Shown: in pieces, positions 543 through 17,690 of the stretch | How the letters are laid out: each line of letters starts with the position of its first letter | How positions within the stretch are numbered: position 1 is the first letter of the stretch | Source of the DNA: Pseudobdellovibrionaceae bacterium | GTDB lineage: Bacteria > Bdellovibrionota > Bdellovibrionia > Bdellovibrionales > Bdellovibrionaceae | Length of the DNA stretch: 17,690 nucleotides | Assembly: GCA_044359815.1 (NCBI GenBank) | Contig: JBIKLL010000060.1 | Coordinates: 1-17,690, forward strand | Direction: 5' to 3' | The notes under the pieces: model-generated | What the model was told of the DNA's origin: nothing | The model's database searches: none | The model's input: only the letters and a program-made list of their open reading frames with translations | Position numbers and translations under genes: made by a program

Positions 543-1946
543 TGCGGCTTAATTTTATTGGTGTTCATGACCTATTCGGATCCGAGTTGAGACTGGACTA
601 GACTACTGCAGGTAAAGCGCTGCTTTGACTCAACTAATTCAGCTTTTATTCAGCCGCCTCATTTTGCAAAAATGACGACACAGTATTATCTATGGCTTCT
701 TAATAAAGATTTAGAATTAGTGGCTGATTCTGGACTGAGTCGTCCTAAGCTCAATGACAAAAACCAAAATCCTGGCGAACACTGGCGCAAGGCTTTAGAA
801 ATTGCTAAGGGTGATTCACATTTGGCAGCTAGAATGATTTCGATGTTGGGCCATGATGATGCGATGAAAGAGCCCTTAAGCATTTCGCCAACAACACCTG
901 GTTATGATGAATATTTAAAAGTTAGAAAAGAAATTTTTGAACGTGCAATTGAAAAAGCAAAAATTAAAAACCCGTCCATTGTGTCTGATCTAATGTCTTC
1001 TACCTCAAGTAATGTTTTACGCGTATTTAAAAATTCTACTTTGTTTTCCCCTAAATCAATTGGACCGGATATCGATATTTCAGACGAATTAAAGTCTAGG
1101 ATAATTTCTGTTCAGTCCAAAGACGGTAAATCAAATACAATTCCTGCTAAAGCTTATCATTTTTTGGGTTCAATTAATTCAGCCTGTGCGTTTATTGAAA
1201 AGTCTCAGTTGGGAATTTCAACCGGGCTACTAAACCCAATGTTGGCAGGATTTTATCGTGGAATGCGTATGGGGGAAATTATTGACGGTGAAAGATTGAG
1301 CGACAGATATTCTGAATTTTTCAAGACCTCCAAAGAGAATTTTATTTTAGGCGCACAAAAGGCTAAAAAATTTTTAGAACCGCACAAAAATGTATTTATC
1401 AATTCTGTCGGTGATAATGGATCTGAAAAAACGTCGATTTCGGTTTCATAAATAAACTTTCTGAACCAAAATAAGCTTAACTTTCTGAGTGAAGTGGATA
1501 CAAATACACTTTTAACTTTTTCAGACATGGATCAGTTGTATAGTTTTGTTCAAAATGAAAGTGCAAAGAGTGATGCAAAAAAAATCGCTGACAAAAATTT
1601 TAATTTCTCAACGATAATGGGATATAAAATGCGATTTCCCAAAAGGCCGAATGTGACAACCAGTTTGTACAGTTATGGCAAAATCGGTGGAACCTATATG
1701 AAACCTGGCCAGGAAAATCGCTGTGGTGAAAAGGGCTGGTCGACTGACAGATGCGACAGAGCTATGAAAGTGATTGAGTCTTGGGAAGTTTATTTTGATT
1801 GGACTCGGTCGCAACATTCAATTGGGGCTCAGTTTGCCATTGATAACTGTAGAACTTTGAAACACGGCGAAACCTTGGAAACTTTGGCGATAAAGGCATT
1901 GAATGGTCGTAAGTCACAAACCCCAGTTAAAAAAGGCGTAAATTAA
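542..1946 (+). pseudogene. Probable decayed gene (ORFs 672-1451 and 1494-1946 are one reading frame)
   Basis: 672 and 1494 are in the same frame, separated by a single TAA (1449-1451) and 14 sense codons. The frame is also open upstream to a TGA at 588-590, preceded by a hydrophobic LILLVFM stretch. An ATG at 542 (TAATG overlap with the upstream stop) is one base out of frame. Confidence 0.6.
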
Positions 1947-1956
1947 AGATCACCTG

Positions 1957-2142
1957 ACGGTTTAGGATTCGGTCTTCCCACAAATGCGCATCACGCGCAT
2001 TTGTCCCAGAGCCGGGGCCGATCGCTAGAGTAGGGAGTACAGGATTGTCTCGGGCTCCTGCCCTCGCCCCCTTCGGGGTTTCACGCAAAAATAGCATAGT
2101 GCTATTTTTGCCGAACAAAGGTTCAAATCTGACTCTCTACCA
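1957..2142 (-). repeat. tRNA-Val 3'-end-derived repeat/hairpin array (att-like)
   Basis: 2030-2046 is a 17/17 copy of tRNA 2179-2195. 2120-2142 is a degenerate inverted copy of the tRNA 3' end. A short AGGATTC remnant lies at 1964-1970. Perfect hairpins at 1980-2004 (10 bp) and 2085-2111 (12 bp). Confidence 0.85.
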
Positions 2143-2145
2143 AAC

Positions 2146-2172
2146 TAAAAAACCACCTTTCGGTGGTTATTT
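2146..2172 (-). terminator. Intrinsic terminator after tRNA-Val
   Basis: Minus strand AACCACC-GAAA-GGTGGTT followed by a T run. Confidence 0.85.
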
Positions 2173-2176
2173 ACTT

Positions 2177-2252
2177 TGGTAGGGAGTACAGGATTCGAAC
2201 CTGCGACATCCACCTTGTAAGGGTGGCGCTCTACCAACTGAGCTAACTCCCT
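2177..2252 (-). tRNA. tRNA-Val (anticodon TAC), CCA encoded
   Basis: Reverse complement AGGGAGTTAGCTCAGTTGGTAGAGCGCCACCCTTACAAGGTGGATGTCGCAGGTTCGAATCCTGTACTCCCTACCA: 76 nt, canonical cloverleaf. Confidence 0.98.
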
Positions 2253-14203: not shown

Positions 14204-15241
14204 TTGTGTCCCAACAGTTACCTGATAACAATTGTCCAAGCGGGGGGCGGTATTTTAAGCAATCAATTAGAAAACAAAAAATCTGATATCGAAATACTGG
14301 AAGCACCAAATCTGTCGTTTTATTTAGATTACCGAAAATATTTGGATGATTTTTATAAGTACAAACGCGAACTGACTAAAAAAAGTCTGCGACCCTATAC
14401 CTATCAAGTGTTTTCAGCAGGTGCGGATATTAAATCGCCTAATTATTTAAAAATGGTGATTGATGGCAAACGAAATTTGTCTATGGACATGGTTTTGAAA
14501 TTTGCAAAGGCCCTGGGATTAAACAAAGAATCTACAGATGAATTCAAATTGCTGGTGCAGTTTACCCAGGAAAACGATCCAGCGCTCAGAAATATTTTTT
14601 TAAAAAAACTGAATGAACACAGGATTTCAGCAAAATTAAAATCTGGTGAAATTGATGCCAAGACTTGGGAAAAACTGCCCAATTGGATCAGTTGGATTTT
14701 GTTTGCGATGATTGATCAAACAGGTGTGGAATTTAAGCCAGACAAATTGGTTAAACTATTACGTGGAACTGTTAACGAAGAAGAAGTCAGACAGGCTTTG
14801 CAGGCAATCATTGATTCAGGTGAAGTCGAAGTTTCACCTGAAGGCATGGTGGTCAGAAAAAACAATCTGATCGAAACTCCCGAGGATGTTTCAGTTCAGC
14901 TGGTCAGAAAGCTGCAATCTGAGTTGATGTACCTGGGACTAGAATCATTGTTTAAGGATTCAGCCAGCGATCGTGAATTTGGTTCGGCGACTTTGGCCCT
15001 GACCAAAGAAGAGTTTGAGGAGATAAAATTTCAGCTACGAAAGATCAGAAAACAAATCCAAAAAGACAATTCTGTTAAAAGAGCAGGCACAAAAGGGGAC
15101 AAAGTTTACCAATTGAATTTGCAATTGTTCCCGGTGACAGACAGAGTCAATGCGCAACAAGCAGGCATAGCTGCCCAGCAGCAAGAAACTAGACTTTCTG
15201 TTAGTTCTTTGTCAGAAAACCAAAAGGAAACCACTTTGTAA
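14204..15241 (+). CDS. TIGR02147-family protein (N-terminal HTH, DUF4423)
   Basis: YLDYRKYL..FSAGADIKSPNYLKMVIDGKRNLS..AKALGL, C-terminal REFGSATLAL and VYQLNLQLFPVT. True start uncertain. Confidence 0.88.
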   Translation: MCPNSYLITIVQAGGGILSNQLENKKSDIEILEAPNLSFYLDYRKYLDDFYKYKRELTKKSLRPYTYQVFSAGADIKSPNYLKMVIDGKRNLSMDMVLKFAKALGLNKESTDEFKLLVQFTQENDPALRNIFLKKLNEHRISAKLKSGEIDAKTWEKLPNWISWILFAMIDQTGVEFKPDKLVKLLRGTVNEEEVRQALQAIIDSGEVEVSPEGMVVRKNNLIETPEDVSVQLVRKLQSELMYLGLESLFKDSASDREFGSATLALTKEEFEEIKFQLRKIRKQIQKDNSVKRAGTKGDKVYQLNLQLFPVTDRVNAQQAGIAAQQQETRLSVSSLSENQKETTL

Positions 15242-15468: not shown

Positions 15469-15813
15469 GGGGGTGACCTGGTTTCGACGTGGGAACAGAA
15501 GCTTGAGGAGCATTCCGGGGCGCATGGGGACCTCGTTAAAAACGTGCATCTTGTAATTGACAACAATTACGCACTTGCAGCCTAACCGCTAGCACGAAAT
15601 TATTTGTTGTGGTCGCGGACTTATAATTTCGTCATTTAGTGACCTCGATCTTGCGTGCTTTCTGCAGGCGTAAGATTTAAAAAATTCTGTGGGAAGGGTA
15701 GTTTTGATTTCGTCTGTAGAAGCTAAGCTATCAATTTAAATTGCAGACTAAGAATGTAGCGCCTCAACGTGGATGTCTTACGGACGGGGGTTCGATTCCC
15801 CCCACCTCCACCA
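15469..15813 (+). ncRNA. ssrA: tmRNA, tag peptide (A)DNNYALAA
   Basis: 5' GGGGGTG..GGTTTCGAC pairs with 3' CACCTCC-ACCA with a G3:U pair; T-arm GGGGGTTCGATTCCCCC; tag frame GAC AAC AAT TAC GCA CTT GCA GCC TAA at 15559-15585. Confidence 0.97.
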
Positions 15814-15815
15814 AT

Positions 15816-15842
15816 TAAAATGCCACCGAAAGGTGGCTTTTT
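15816..15842 (+). terminator. Intrinsic terminator after tmRNA
   Basis: GCCACC-GAAA-GGTGGC followed by TTTTT. Confidence 0.88.
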
Positions 15843-15845
15843 AAT

Positions 15846-15984
15846 TGGTGGATGGATGAAGGGAATCGAACTATTCTCGAGCCGGGGTTCGACTCGAAGG
15901 CCACGATGGCCGGAGAGCGCGTAGCCCTGAGCTTCGCTGAGGGTGAGTGCCGTGACGGCACGAGCATTCCCCCCACCTCAACCA
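15846..15984 (+). repeat. tmRNA 3'-end-derived repeat/hairpin element (att-like)
   Basis: Inverted degenerate copy at 15846-15871; GGGGTTCG at 15884-15891; GC-rich hairpins at 15892-15965; direct copy 15966-15984 (18/19 to 15795-15813). Confidence 0.88.
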
Positions 15985-16219
15985 TTTTCTCCGTACCAGT
16001 TATCAAGGATTTAACGGGGTTTCTTTTTGTTTCACTGAAATTCATTTATTATCATATATTTCAAAAACTTAATTGTATTTTTGCTTGAATTAAGTTCCTT
16101 GGATTTCCCTTACTTTAATCAAGTAACTTAGGGTCTTCTAGACTTGTTTTCTCTTTTCATTCTGCCGACAATGAAGCTTCTACAACGCAACAACCAACTA
16201 CTATGTTGAAGGGGTCTCC

Positions 16220-17371
16220 ATGAAAAAAATGATCGTTGTTATATCTCTGGTTATCACGAGCGCCTGCTCTAAAAGCAGTGACACGACTTCTGCTGCGGCC
16301 ACATTGGATACATCCATTACTGGTGTCATCTCCACCGCAACCGAAAAAATCACAGAGGGAATTCCAGGAGGAGATGTTTTGGCGTCTTCGGTTTCGACCT
16401 TAGGTGATATCGGTGCTGGCTATGGGAGCACAGATATTCAAATATTCGGATCTGGCTACTTCAACACTCCACAAACCTTCGTGCAATACTTGCTGAACAA
16501 AGCAGAAGATCTGGATCCAGGGGATGGAATGGGTTTGATCAATCGTTTTAAACAAAAGATTGTCAGCGGAATGTGTCCAATTATTGGACTGCATCCCGAT
16601 GCAAATTCAGATGGGATTCCCGACATTGGATCGGGTACCTTTGTTCTTCCTAACTTTTCGGACTCAACAGTTGCGGCTTCAATTGTTGCGAAATGTCCAG
16701 GAGCCAACGCAGCAAGCCTGAACGGCGCCTCAGGAGTAACAATCGGCTATGCGGTCACCGACGTCAGCGCTCTGGCGGGTTCAGAGTATTCCATTAAATC
16801 CGTGATCGATTTTGGTAATAATGGATCCACTGATAATATTCTTTATTACAAAGCGGATGGCAGTGTAATTCGCTTTGCATTTGTCGAGGTTGATACTTCT
16901 ATTATTGAGAGTGCTGCCTTATTTGAATTCGATGGAACTACATTAAGGTTTGATTTCCACGGCGGAGGGCAGGATGGCCACTATCGCATGCTGTATGACG
17001 GTTCAACTCGTGATATTTCACTTTATGGAATGGTGAAGAAAGATGCATCAAACAAGGTTTATATGTCGATGGTCGGAAATCGAAAAGAATCCCTAGCTGC
17101 TGTTACGTTGTCTGCCTTGAAAGCAAACGTAGCGGTTGTTTCAAATGGTCAAGCTTGCGTTACCGTCACTGGCGACACCTTTCCCTGGGACTCGAATTTC
17201 TCTTCGGGTGCCTGCGGAACTATTGTTGGATCTGATTTCGCCACCGCGCCGGCTGTTGCTGCACTTTCTGACGGATTTGATGGGTCATTGAATGTCAGTG
17301 TGTTTGATCACACGGATAAGATTCTTTTTTCGACACCAGCAACTGTGCTGACCAGCGCGATTATTCAGTAA
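16220..17371 (+). CDS. Hypothetical lipoprotein (383 aa)
   Basis: MKK + hydrophobic stretch + lipobox-like TSAC (Cys16), Ser/Thr-rich tether, beta-rich body; SD AGGGG. Confidence 0.85.
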   Translation: MKKMIVVISLVITSACSKSSDTTSAAATLDTSITGVISTATEKITEGIPGGDVLASSVSTLGDIGAGYGSTDIQIFGSGYFNTPQTFVQYLLNKAEDLDPGDGMGLINRFKQKIVSGMCPIIGLHPDANSDGIPDIGSGTFVLPNFSDSTVAASIVAKCPGANAASLNGASGVTIGYAVTDVSALAGSEYSIKSVIDFGNNGSTDNILYYKADGSVIRFAFVEVDTSIIESAALFEFDGTTLRFDFHGGGQDGHYRMLYDGSTRDISLYGMVKKDASNKVYMSMVGNRKESLAAVTLSALKANVAVVSNGQACVTVTGDTFPWDSNFSSGACGTIVGSDFATAPAVAALSDGFDGSLNVSVFDHTDKILFSTPATVLTSAIIQ

Positions 17372-17475
17372 TACTTTTCTATCGCAGTTTTCACAGGACT
17401 TTAAAAACAAATCCATGTATCAACAAGGCAAACTCGACATTTTTGAAAGCGGTGTTGCCATAGCGAAAGCCGTTT

Positions 17476-17589
17476 GGAGATCCGTCGCTGAGATTGAGGC
17501 GGCATTCCCCCCACCGAACGTTGCCGGCTCTGGAAGCGAAGTGAGCGTGAAGCGAACTTGAGCGAGAAGACCTATTCCCTCCACCGAGC
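17476..17589 (+). repeat. Two further tmRNA T-loop/acceptor fragments with an intervening module
   Basis: GCATTCCCCCCACC 17502-17515 (14/14 to 15964-15977); ATTCCCTCCACC 17574-17585 (11/12); TCGCTGAG 17485-17492 matches 15934-15941. Confidence 0.8.
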
Positions 17590-17608
17590 ATTAGAATTGG
17601 GAGTTAAA

Positions 17609-17690
17609 ATGAAATTGAACAAACACGATGAGCTACTTTTGCGTGATCTCAAATTTCAGCCAATTTGGCTGATGATATTTTATATTTTGA
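17609..17690 (+). CDS. 5' part of a hypothetical (possibly membrane) protein running off the window
   Basis: GGAG SD, ATG 17609, open to the window end: MKLNKHDELLLRDLKFQPIWLMIFYIL. Confidence 0.55.
   Translation, partial: MKLNKHDELLLRDLKFQPIWLMIFYIL

What the first reader, a model, noticed from the sequence alone, without database searches (positions are those of the whole stretch)
15964..17690. Cassette-like array behind tmRNA: repeat - lipoprotein gene - repeat - repeat - next gene
Seen: GCATTCCCCCCACC at 15964 and 17502 (14/14, each preceded by GGAGA..TCGCTGAG..TGAG) delimit a 1538-bp unit holding only a lipoprotein gene. A further fragment at 17574-17585 is followed 23 nt later by a new ORF with an SD but little room for a promoter. 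Inference: integron-like serial capture of single envelope-protein genes at ssrA, possibly diversifying the predator's surface; the array probably continues past the window.
Basis: partly seen in the sequence, partly recalled or inferred. Interest (0 to 1): 0.75.

Follow-up and report, generated by a model that had tools for sequence, protein, structure and literature searches.

The report
Decayed island behind the tmRNA gene
The repeats are three copies of the tmRNA gene's own tail; two enclose a predicted lipoprotein gene plus a broken piece of a second gene, and no further copy was found downstream, so this is most likely the worn remnant of mobile DNA inserted at a common hotspot rather than an integron-like gene-capture array.

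Summary
The repeats are real: they are copies of the tmRNA (ssrA) 3' end, at 15966, 17504 and 17574, and occur nowhere else in the assembly. The cassette reading fails three tests. (1) The 1538-bp unit holds more than the lipoprotein gene: 17388-17502 is a PfpI-NUDIX gene remnant cut at both ends, and the 'shared' GGAGA..TCGCTGAG..TGAG before 17502 is its coding sequence. (2) The array stops: the ORF at 17609 continues on contig C53, whose 50 kb hold no further copy or recombinase. (3) No attC core, no IntI, and no circle or empty-site junction in contigs of 8 runs. The first and third copies end two gene-free hairpin modules that also follow tRNA genes here (14 of 34 tDNAs have a nearby tail copy) and occur in relatives; neither matches Rfam. 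In relatives ssrA is an ordinary island hotspot. Best reading: a trimmed island that entered at the tail copy inside a tRNA-linked hairpin repeat, by an integrase supplied from elsewhere. The scan noted these modules and displaced tails before, on other DNA.

The parts
15469..15813 (+). tmRNA gene (ssrA); its last 19 nt (15795-15813) are the source of the repeats
   Evidence: ARAGORN; Rfam RF00023, 174 bits
15807..15871 (+). Terminator-like hairpin (core 15822-15837) extended by an inverted copy of the ssrA T-arm/acceptor end
   Evidence: inverted repeat I5, self-BLAST 15790-15871, terminator scan; 15784-15985 folds with z -8.6 as RNA
15885..15965 (+). Module A: gene-free three-hairpin repeat, starts like the 5' half of a T-loop
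   Evidence: alignment A2 with first hairpin covarying in 6 of 10 pairs; CM R1 (this copy is in its training set)
15966..15984 (+). Tail copy F1 (18 of 19 identical to the ssrA 3' end)
15985..16219 (+). 235-nt AT-rich leader; one sigma70-like site (16031-16060, no better than chance) and one weak island-arm-like motif at 16002
16220..17371 (+). 383-aa predicted lipoprotein, no known family, predicted long beta-meander behind a small helical part
   Evidence: Cys16 invariant in 25 aligned sequences; model pLDDT 80.7; no clear PDB match
17388..17502 (+). Remnant of a PfpI-NUDIX hydrolase gene, cut at both ends; source of the supposed repeat extension
   Evidence: 28 of 37 residues identical to P0033; only significant tblastn hit in the genome, E 7e-11; 88 of 115 nt identical to the G094 copy, by codon position 34/39, 34/38, 20/38
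17504..17515 (+). Tail copy F2 (12 nt), running straight into module C
17516..17573 (+). Module C: second gene-free hairpin repeat, 9 copies in this genome, each followed by a tRNA-tail-like stretch
   Evidence: 86% identical over 65 nt to the copy behind tRNA-Asp on C38
17574..17585 (+). Tail copy F3 (damaged)
17609..17690 (+). First 27 codons of a small (about 78 aa) hydrophobic protein of no known family; the rest lies at the end of contig C53
   Evidence: P0035 93% identical over 27 aa; residues 37-74 at G000:C53:50281-50394 minus strand; no Pfam family
1965..2252 (-). Comparison locus: tRNA-Val(TAC), terminator, module A, tail copy, module C, damaged tail copy; the same order as at ssrA but without cargo

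Best explanation
The three repeats are copies of the tmRNA gene's 3' end, and the 1538-bp stretch between the first two is likely the trimmed remnant of a genomic island that was inserted there by an integrase encoded elsewhere. Shown: ssrA is followed by a terminator, hairpin module A and tail copy F1; then a lipoprotein gene, a NUDIX gene piece cut at both ends, F2, hairpin module C and F3; after that ordinary accessory genes without repeats. Inferred history: the ancestral locus read ssrA - terminator - module A - tail - module C - tail, as tRNA-Val in this window still does. A tyrosine integrase that recognises the ssrA T-loop/3' end used the tail copy behind module A as a second target, and a circle entered through the 13-nt core. 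That duplicated the core: F1 got a complete tail and leader from the incoming DNA, F2 kept its old junction with module C. Deletions (or a faulty excision in the donor) removed the integrase and most cargo and cut the NUDIX gene. The unit is now likely immobile. The modules are passengers and spare targets, not attC-like sites carried by each gene.
For: Repeat equals the ssrA 3' end. Cargo-free locus of the same layout at tRNA-Val. NUDIX remnant with a coding pattern of change; its full-length form is patchy (5 of 181 family genomes, 16 of 181 with any match), one copy lies about 21 kb behind ssrA on the same strand (G019) and a related domain lies in a tRNA-Val island (L295). ssrA is an island hotspot in the family: a 9-nt 3' scar occurs 31 times on the ssrA strand against 5 on the other strand in 1.02 Mb downstream of ssrA; 23 of 59 loci have one, 7 have two or three; 14 of 59 have a recombinase-like ORF within 15 kb (three are the seeds themselves; Pfam confirms L205 and L196). 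Small islets without an integrase, 1.1-1.3 kb, sit at ssrA in L194, L195, L215 and L242. L215 has the window's order: ssrA, module, tail, one gene, scar. In L205 a module's tail copy is followed by an arm sequence like that found directly behind ssrA in L196 and L010, as expected if tails serve as targets. L094 has two near-identical module copies around a 5-kb island with an integrase C-terminal remnant. Published pattern: regenerated tDNA plus displaced 3' fragment, tmRNA the most enriched target (PMC4383910, passages); cassettes ended by tRNA direct repeats (PMC4898812, PMC7771536, passages).
Against: No integrase lies in or near the unit, and none for ssrA was found in the assembly (2 tyrosine recombinases on other contigs, no resolvase; assembly 91% complete), so the enzyme is inferred. 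No empty version of this exact locus is known: G000 is the only genome of its genus among those searched and 8 runs show one arrangement. In the clearest filled/empty pair among relatives (L243 empty, L205 filled, same terminator and nearly the same module), and in L240, L241 and L242, insertion was at the gene's own 3' end and pushed the module away, which is the rival order of events. The NUDIX gene is cut within one base of the usual module/tail boundary, which random deletion explains poorly. GC and GC3 of the lipoprotein gene (0.46, 0.41) lie in or next to the range of its neighbours, so composition gives no sign of recent transfer. The arm-like motif at 16002 was defined after the fact (5 of 57 loci against 30 of 3384 background windows) and is weak.
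Confidence: 0.6

Rival explanations
1. Same kind of relic, other order: an island entered at the 3' end of ssrA proper and displaced the old terminator, module and tails; a later deletion fused the NUDIX gene to F2, and a new module A with F1 arose behind the restored gene.
For: This displacement is seen directly in relatives: L243 versus L205, and L240 (4.7 kb), L242 (1.2 kb), L241 (about 23 kb), each with a short scar, terminator, module A and tail on the far side of the cargo.
Against: No scar, terminator or module remnant is left between the lipoprotein and F2; it needs a deletion that ends within one base of the tail boundary and a second birth of the module.
Confidence: 0.22
2. Module-directed capture: an enzyme that makes or moves the hairpin modules (an HUH/Y1 transposase or the orphan tyrosine recombinase on C26) cuts at the module/tail boundary and joins foreign DNA there with little homology, so that arbitrary pieces, even gene fragments, are trapped behind tRNA genes.
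For: NUDIX-F2 junction at the boundary to within one base. Other tDNAs of this genome trap 0.8-0.9-kb toxin-antitoxin-like units between tail copies (Arg-TCG, a CAT tRNA, Glu). Module A is also a dispersed intergenic repeat in complete relatives (29 of 40 fetched stretches hold no ARAGORN tDNA) and interrupts a whole tRNA-Pro-like gene in the T-loop in L257. The genome has 9 Y1-transposase-like genes.
Against: None of the 9 Y1 genes shows a module in the about 260-300 nt read on each side. In 12 relatives' module-C loci read (one locus cut from view) the downstream genes vary but are not each bounded by tails. Ordinary integrase islands explain the scars in relatives. Whether the other post-cargo tails in this genome also cut genes is untested.
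Confidence: 0.11
3. One reading: an integron-like array in which single envelope-protein genes are captured one after another at ssrA, each with its own recombination site.
For: Direct repeats bound the unit; both named genes are rare and likely envelope proteins; single-gene or two-gene islets at ssrA recur in relatives.
Against: Second truncated gene in the unit; no folded site before F2; no attC core; no IntI; no more copies in 50 kb; the next gene's homolog in G144 follows an ordinary gene without tail or module; the one lipoprotein homolog locus read (L031) has no tRNA or tmRNA in 20.9 kb; no joints in 8 runs.
Confidence: 0.05

Closest known systems
Genomic islands in tRNA/tmRNA genes (Islander signature; PMC4383910, passages read)
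   Same: Intact tDNA plus 3' fragments in the same orientation; T-stem-region crossover; tandem arrays; tmRNA the favoured target.
   Different: No integrase in the unit, so Islander would reject it; 1.5 kb only; the fragments start at a hairpin module's end, without the 5' half of the T-loop.
Additive flexible genomic islands (Alteromonas PMC4898812; Ca. Actinomarinales PMC7771536; passages read)
   Same: [quoted passage not shown]
   Different: The passages read describe no conserved hairpin modules at the repeats; strain-level turnover could not be shown here.
E. coli tRNA-linked repeats, RtT/rttR of tyrT (layout recalled and taken from earlier scan notes; only a passage on rttR read, bioRxiv 10.1101/2024.07.17.603846)
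   Same: Short structured units behind a stable-RNA gene that end in a copy of its 3' end; function unclear.
   Different: No RF00391 or other matching Rfam family; the sequence family is different and module A is also dispersed away from tRNAs.
Integrons and CALIN arrays (features recalled)
   Same: Small units with toxin-antitoxin or envelope cargo between repeated sites.
   Different: No IntI, no attC cores, sites not conserved between units, gene has a 235-nt leader, array of one cargo unit.
REP/BIME/REPIN repeats with RAYT (features recalled)
   Same: Short palindromic intergenic repeats with conserved hairpin tips; Y1 transposases present in the genome.
   Different: Modules do not flank the Y1 genes; copy number is low (13 module-A hits here, up to 18 in relatives, with only 28 candidates scored per genome).

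Membership tests
Integron / CALIN | Integron integrase IntI | tested here: not met
   Both tyrosine recombinases score 80 and 124 bits on TIGR02249, cut-off 265; neither is near the locus. Assembly 91% complete.
Integron / CALIN | attC sites with RYYYAAC and GTTRRRY cores (motif recalled) | tested here: not met
   No match on either strand in 15814-16010 or 17372-17620. IntegronFinder itself was not available.
Integron / CALIN | Several gene-sized units in a row, each with its own site | tested here: not met
   One cargo unit; no further tail, scar or module in contig C53.
Integron / CALIN | Excision of cassette circles | tested here: inconclusive
   No joint in contigs of 8 runs; contigs at depth 2-9 drop rare forms.
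tDNA genomic island (Islander) | Intact tDNA with a 3' fragment downstream in the same orientation | tested here: met
tDNA genomic island (Islander) | Integrase gene inside the unit | tested here: not met
   so it is at most a decayed or non-autonomous island, not an Islander island
tDNA genomic island (Islander) | Cargo absent from most relatives | tested here: met
   Lipoprotein 0 of 181; PfpI-NUDIX full length 5 of 181
Additive flexible genomic island | tRNA/tmRNA hotspot whose content varies among relatives, with tail repeats behind cassettes | tested here: met
   59 ssrA loci: scars 31 against 5, varied cargo
Additive flexible genomic island | Different cassette sets among strains of one species | tested here: inconclusive
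   No second genome of the genus; 8 lake-water runs show one arrangement without variant letters where covered
RtT / tRNA-linked repeat of E. coli | Match to Rfam RF00391 | tested here: not met
   No such hit at E up to 5 in the window part or E up to 0.5 in 11 module loci
RtT / tRNA-linked repeat of E. coli | Structured unit behind the gene ending in a copy of its 3' end | tested here: met
RtT / tRNA-linked repeat of E. coli | Released as a small RNA from the precursor transcript | not testable with these tools
REP/REPIN with RAYT | Repeats flank the Y1 transposase gene | tested here: not met
   Flanks of 9 of 9 Y1-like genes read
Prophage remnant | Phage structural or replication genes | tested here: inconclusive
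   No phage family among 9 window proteins and 6 downstream proteins scanned with Pfam; PHROGs not run; module pattern gave only 2 hits in viral contigs, neither with the hairpin or a tRNA tail

The most novel reading that the evidence does not exclude
The hairpin modules are recognition sites of an undescribed, integrase-free capture system: a host enzyme cuts at the module/T-loop boundary, pastes modules into tRNA tails and other hairpins, and there traps short pieces of foreign DNA (toxin-antitoxin pairs, a lipoprotein, gene fragments) behind about 40% of this predator relative's tRNA/tmRNA genes.
Probability: 0.11. Interest if true: 0.8.

Novelty: new variant of a known kind. Interest (0 to 1): 0.3.

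Why it matters
As an island relic at ssrA it is ordinary. The added value is small but real: the locus suggests that tRNA-linked hairpin repeats, whose role is unexplained, act as spare integration targets and are shuffled by islands. If instead the modules direct capture themselves, Bdellovibrio-type predators would have a gene-collecting mechanism parallel to integrons, testable in cultured relatives that carry the same modules. The lipoprotein is a new small family with a confident model and no clear solved relative; a role in changing the predator's surface is possible but has no support here.

Tried and rejected
1. 'Stretch before 17504 is a decayed module A': my alignment controls favoured it (3 of 1000 shuffles and 7 of 2000 genomic stretches; 18 of 1887) but the CM missed it and protein and codon evidence overturned it. 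2. Continuation of the window by DNA overlap: none; solved only by protein homology. 3. One search used a mistyped module pattern and is void; redone. 5. Lipoprotein loci: 1 in metagenomes, 0 in genome contigs. First model useless (pLDDT 34); second good but best structural match Z 7.6, rmsd 5.3, in the range of common beta-sheet arrangements, and Foldseek gave nothing at E 0.001: inconclusive. 6. Promoter scan found 2 sites against 4.2 expected: no information on 'room for a promoter'. 7. Read laying: no joints in the array; uncovered bins in low-depth runs are no evidence. Runs X1 and X2 may be the source of the assembly. 8. Y1 transposases as movers: no module beside them. 9. Literature: nine searches found no description of these modules or of a Bdellovibrio ssrA array; the library lacks most subscription papers, Williams 2003 on tmRNA-gene traffic was not held (known to me by recall only), PMC10542128 had no relevant passage, and no supplements were read, where island tables could bear on novelty. 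10. Left open: whether the other post-cargo tail copies in this genome also cut genes.

Full report
Setting. The window is the whole of contig C59 of a 2.95-Mb, 91% complete assembly found in lake-water metagenomes. That the host is a Bdellovibrio-type bacterium is inferred from the module it shares with records labelled Bdellovibrionota, the TIGR02147-family gene beside ssrA and the Atlas neighbours of the lipoprotein.

The observation. Their core is the T-loop/acceptor end of the tmRNA gene at 15469-15813. It occurs at 15795 (the gene), 15966, 17504 and 17574 and nowhere else in the assembly; 0 of 200 shuffles give four matches. So these are tail copies of ssrA (F1, F2, F3), the usual mark of integration at a tDNA.

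Two hairpin modules. Between ssrA and F1 lie a terminator, an inverted tail copy and an 81-nt three-hairpin module A; the stretch folds far better than shuffles (z -8.6). Between F2 and F3 lies a 58-nt module C. Neither is special to ssrA: 14 of the 34 tDNAs have a cognate tail copy 130-325 nt downstream (a weak fifteenth at tRNA-Gln not counted), module C occurs 9 times in the genome and in 10 of 181 other family genomes, and a covariance model of module A, trained on 14 copies from six genomes, hits 53 of 146. Stems covary (6 of 10 and 7 of 10 predicted pairs; related sequences, so suggestive only). No Rfam family matches. tRNA-Val in this window has the order gene, terminator, A, tail, C, tail without cargo. 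In complete relatives module A is also scattered between housekeeping genes: of 40 stretches fetched from the upper part of the 237 hits, 29 hold no ARAGORN tDNA.

What the 1538-bp unit holds. The 383-aa ORF has an invariant Cys16 in 25 aligned sequences, no Pfam or NCBIfam family, 6 homologs at 48-69% and 26 profile hits, and is found in 0 of 181 other family genomes. The one homolog locus I could read has no tRNA or tmRNA gene in 20.9 kb. Behind its stop codon, 17388-17502 is a piece of a PfpI-NUDIX gene: 28 of 37 residues match P0033, it is the only significant tblastn hit in the genome, and its DNA matches the G094 copy at 88 of 115 bases with the changes piled at third codon positions. 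The piece lacks the whole 5' part and the last 17-18 codons, and ends one base before the C that precedes F2. My own shuffle tests first pointed the other way, a warning about such controls; the module model finds nothing there. Full-length PfpI-NUDIX genes are patchy (5 of 181) and sit among accessory genes, once about 21 kb behind ssrA. The unit is therefore a trimmed multi-gene piece, not a clean cassette.

Does the array go on? The ORF at 17609 is real: a 78-aa hydrophobic protein matches it at 93% over 27 residues, and residues 37-74 lie at the end of contig C53 in the right orientation. I infer that C59 runs into C53 across a gap of about nine codons; run X1 has a contig that goes 1587 nt past the window's end, but its letters were not shown. 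The 50 kb of C53 hold no tail copy (one 2-mismatch hit 16 kb on), no 9-nt scar and no module C, no module A in the first 19.9 kb with filters off and none of the 13 genome-wide hits, and no recombinase. The first genes are a CNNM/CBS protein, a VTT protein, a sensor kinase, a flavin oxidoreductase, a GNAT and DUF1428. The small gene's homologs lie 34.6 kb (whole) and 5.8 kb (3' piece) behind ssrA in two relatives, without tail or module in front.

Integron tests. No attC core motif (recalled consensus) at either site; both tyrosine recombinases are far below the integron-integrase cut-off, and also below the XerC and XerD cut-offs, so their identity is open. Contigs of 8 runs show no joint, loose end or variant letter in the array, apart from two single loose ends inside genes in X6 and tmRNA matches of other organisms (loose-end table was cut); rare circles would not appear in contigs.

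ssrA in relatives. I fetched up to 19.5 kb behind ssrA from 60 genomes chosen for long contigs; 59 parsed. By a strict criterion 8 have one long tail copy and none has two. A 9-nt scar occurs 31 times on the ssrA strand and 5 times on the other; 23 loci have one and 7 have two or three. Fourteen have a recombinase-like ORF within 15 kb (three of them seeds). L243 and L205 are an empty and a filled form with the same terminator and nearly the same module, the latter pushed 13 kb away by an island with serine and tyrosine recombinases; L240, L241 and L242 show the same displacement. L215 shows ssrA, module, tail, one gene, scar. L094 shows two fresh module copies round an island with an integrase remnant. 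In G000 itself, toxin-antitoxin-like pairs lie between tail copies at three other tDNAs. All this is the pattern described for tDNA islands and additive flexible islands (PMC4383910, PMC4898812, PMC7771536; passages only).

Mechanism. Best supported (0.6): insertion by a trans-acting ssrA integrase at the tail copy behind module A, then trimming. It explains why F1 has a whole tail and a leader while F2 abuts module C as at tRNA-Val. The enzyme, the circle and the order of events are inferred. The main rival (0.22) is insertion at ssrA proper with displacement, which relatives show directly but which needs two extra steps here. A module-directed capture system (0.11) is not excluded: the NUDIX junction falls at the tail boundary, module A behaves like a mobile repeat and interrupts a whole tRNA-Pro-like gene in L257; but no candidate enzyme is linked to the modules. 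The integron-like array is unlikely (0.05).

Verdict. Observation partly confirmed; interpretation partly supported. A decayed islet at a known hotspot, set in an undescribed (by my nine searches) family of tRNA-linked hairpin repeats that earlier notes of this scan had already reported on other DNA. Interest 0.3.

Noticed in passing
L257:2330-2490 (G193:C238): A whole tRNA-Pro(GGG)-like gene interrupted in the T-loop by an intact module A; either a dead gene or a T-loop intervening sequence. Not checked whether the genome has a second copy.
   Followed up: no
L259-L278 (G058, G059, G070): Module A as a dispersed intergenic repeat between housekeeping genes such as EF-G, RecA and L19 (named from the N-terminal sequences by recall), 11-18 hits in some complete genomes, often as the tip of a longer hairpin.
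   Followed up: partly
L158, L159, L160, L161 (G000 C21, C111, C31, C122): Toxin-antitoxin-like pairs (BrnT/BrnA, Gp49-like toxin with HI1420 antidote, an HTH_37 pair) lie between tail copies behind tRNA-Arg(TCG), a CAT tRNA and tRNA-Glu.
   Followed up: partly
L236 (G000:C79:13115-14456); ends of C81, C106, C75, C29: A 1.3-kb insertion sequence (ISL3-like by recall of the transposase) whose copies sit in the hairpins behind tRNA-Leu(TAG) and a tRNA-Met and break the assembly there.
   Followed up: partly
L156 (G000:C26:6747-7706): Orphan tyrosine recombinase, below XerC, XerD and IntI cut-offs, 4.3 kb from tRNA-Val(GAC), no island marks seen.
   Followed up: partly
G000 C8, C23, C47, C48, C49, C56, C100, C125: Eight near-identical Y1-transposase-like genes of about 200 aa, several beside simple-sequence repeats, and one RAYT-like gene flanked by its own inverted repeat.
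   Followed up: partly
window 14204-15241 and L031:8884-9813: A TIGR02147/DUF4423 gene lies just upstream of ssrA, and another is divergent from the distant lipoprotein homolog in L031; may be chance, as the family is a paralog family.
   Followed up: no
window 672-1946: Two ORFs without Pfam family lie downstream of the tRNA-Val module locus, with a low-GC stretch at 1001-1500; possibly a second islet.
   Followed up: no
L242 and L184: A GC-rich hairpin follows ssrA (L242, leading into a small GIY-YIG-like ORF named by recall) or an ssrA scar (L184); a different tail-linked element.
   Followed up: no
L245:5400-5700 (G000:C99): Two tandem module-A copies with a terminator, 17 kb from tRNA-Gln; probably a displaced tail.
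   Followed up: no
L162:1-700 (G000:C30), also C95 and C120: IS91/ISCR-like transposase fragments (label recalled, not scanned) in the island behind tRNA-fMet.
   Followed up: no
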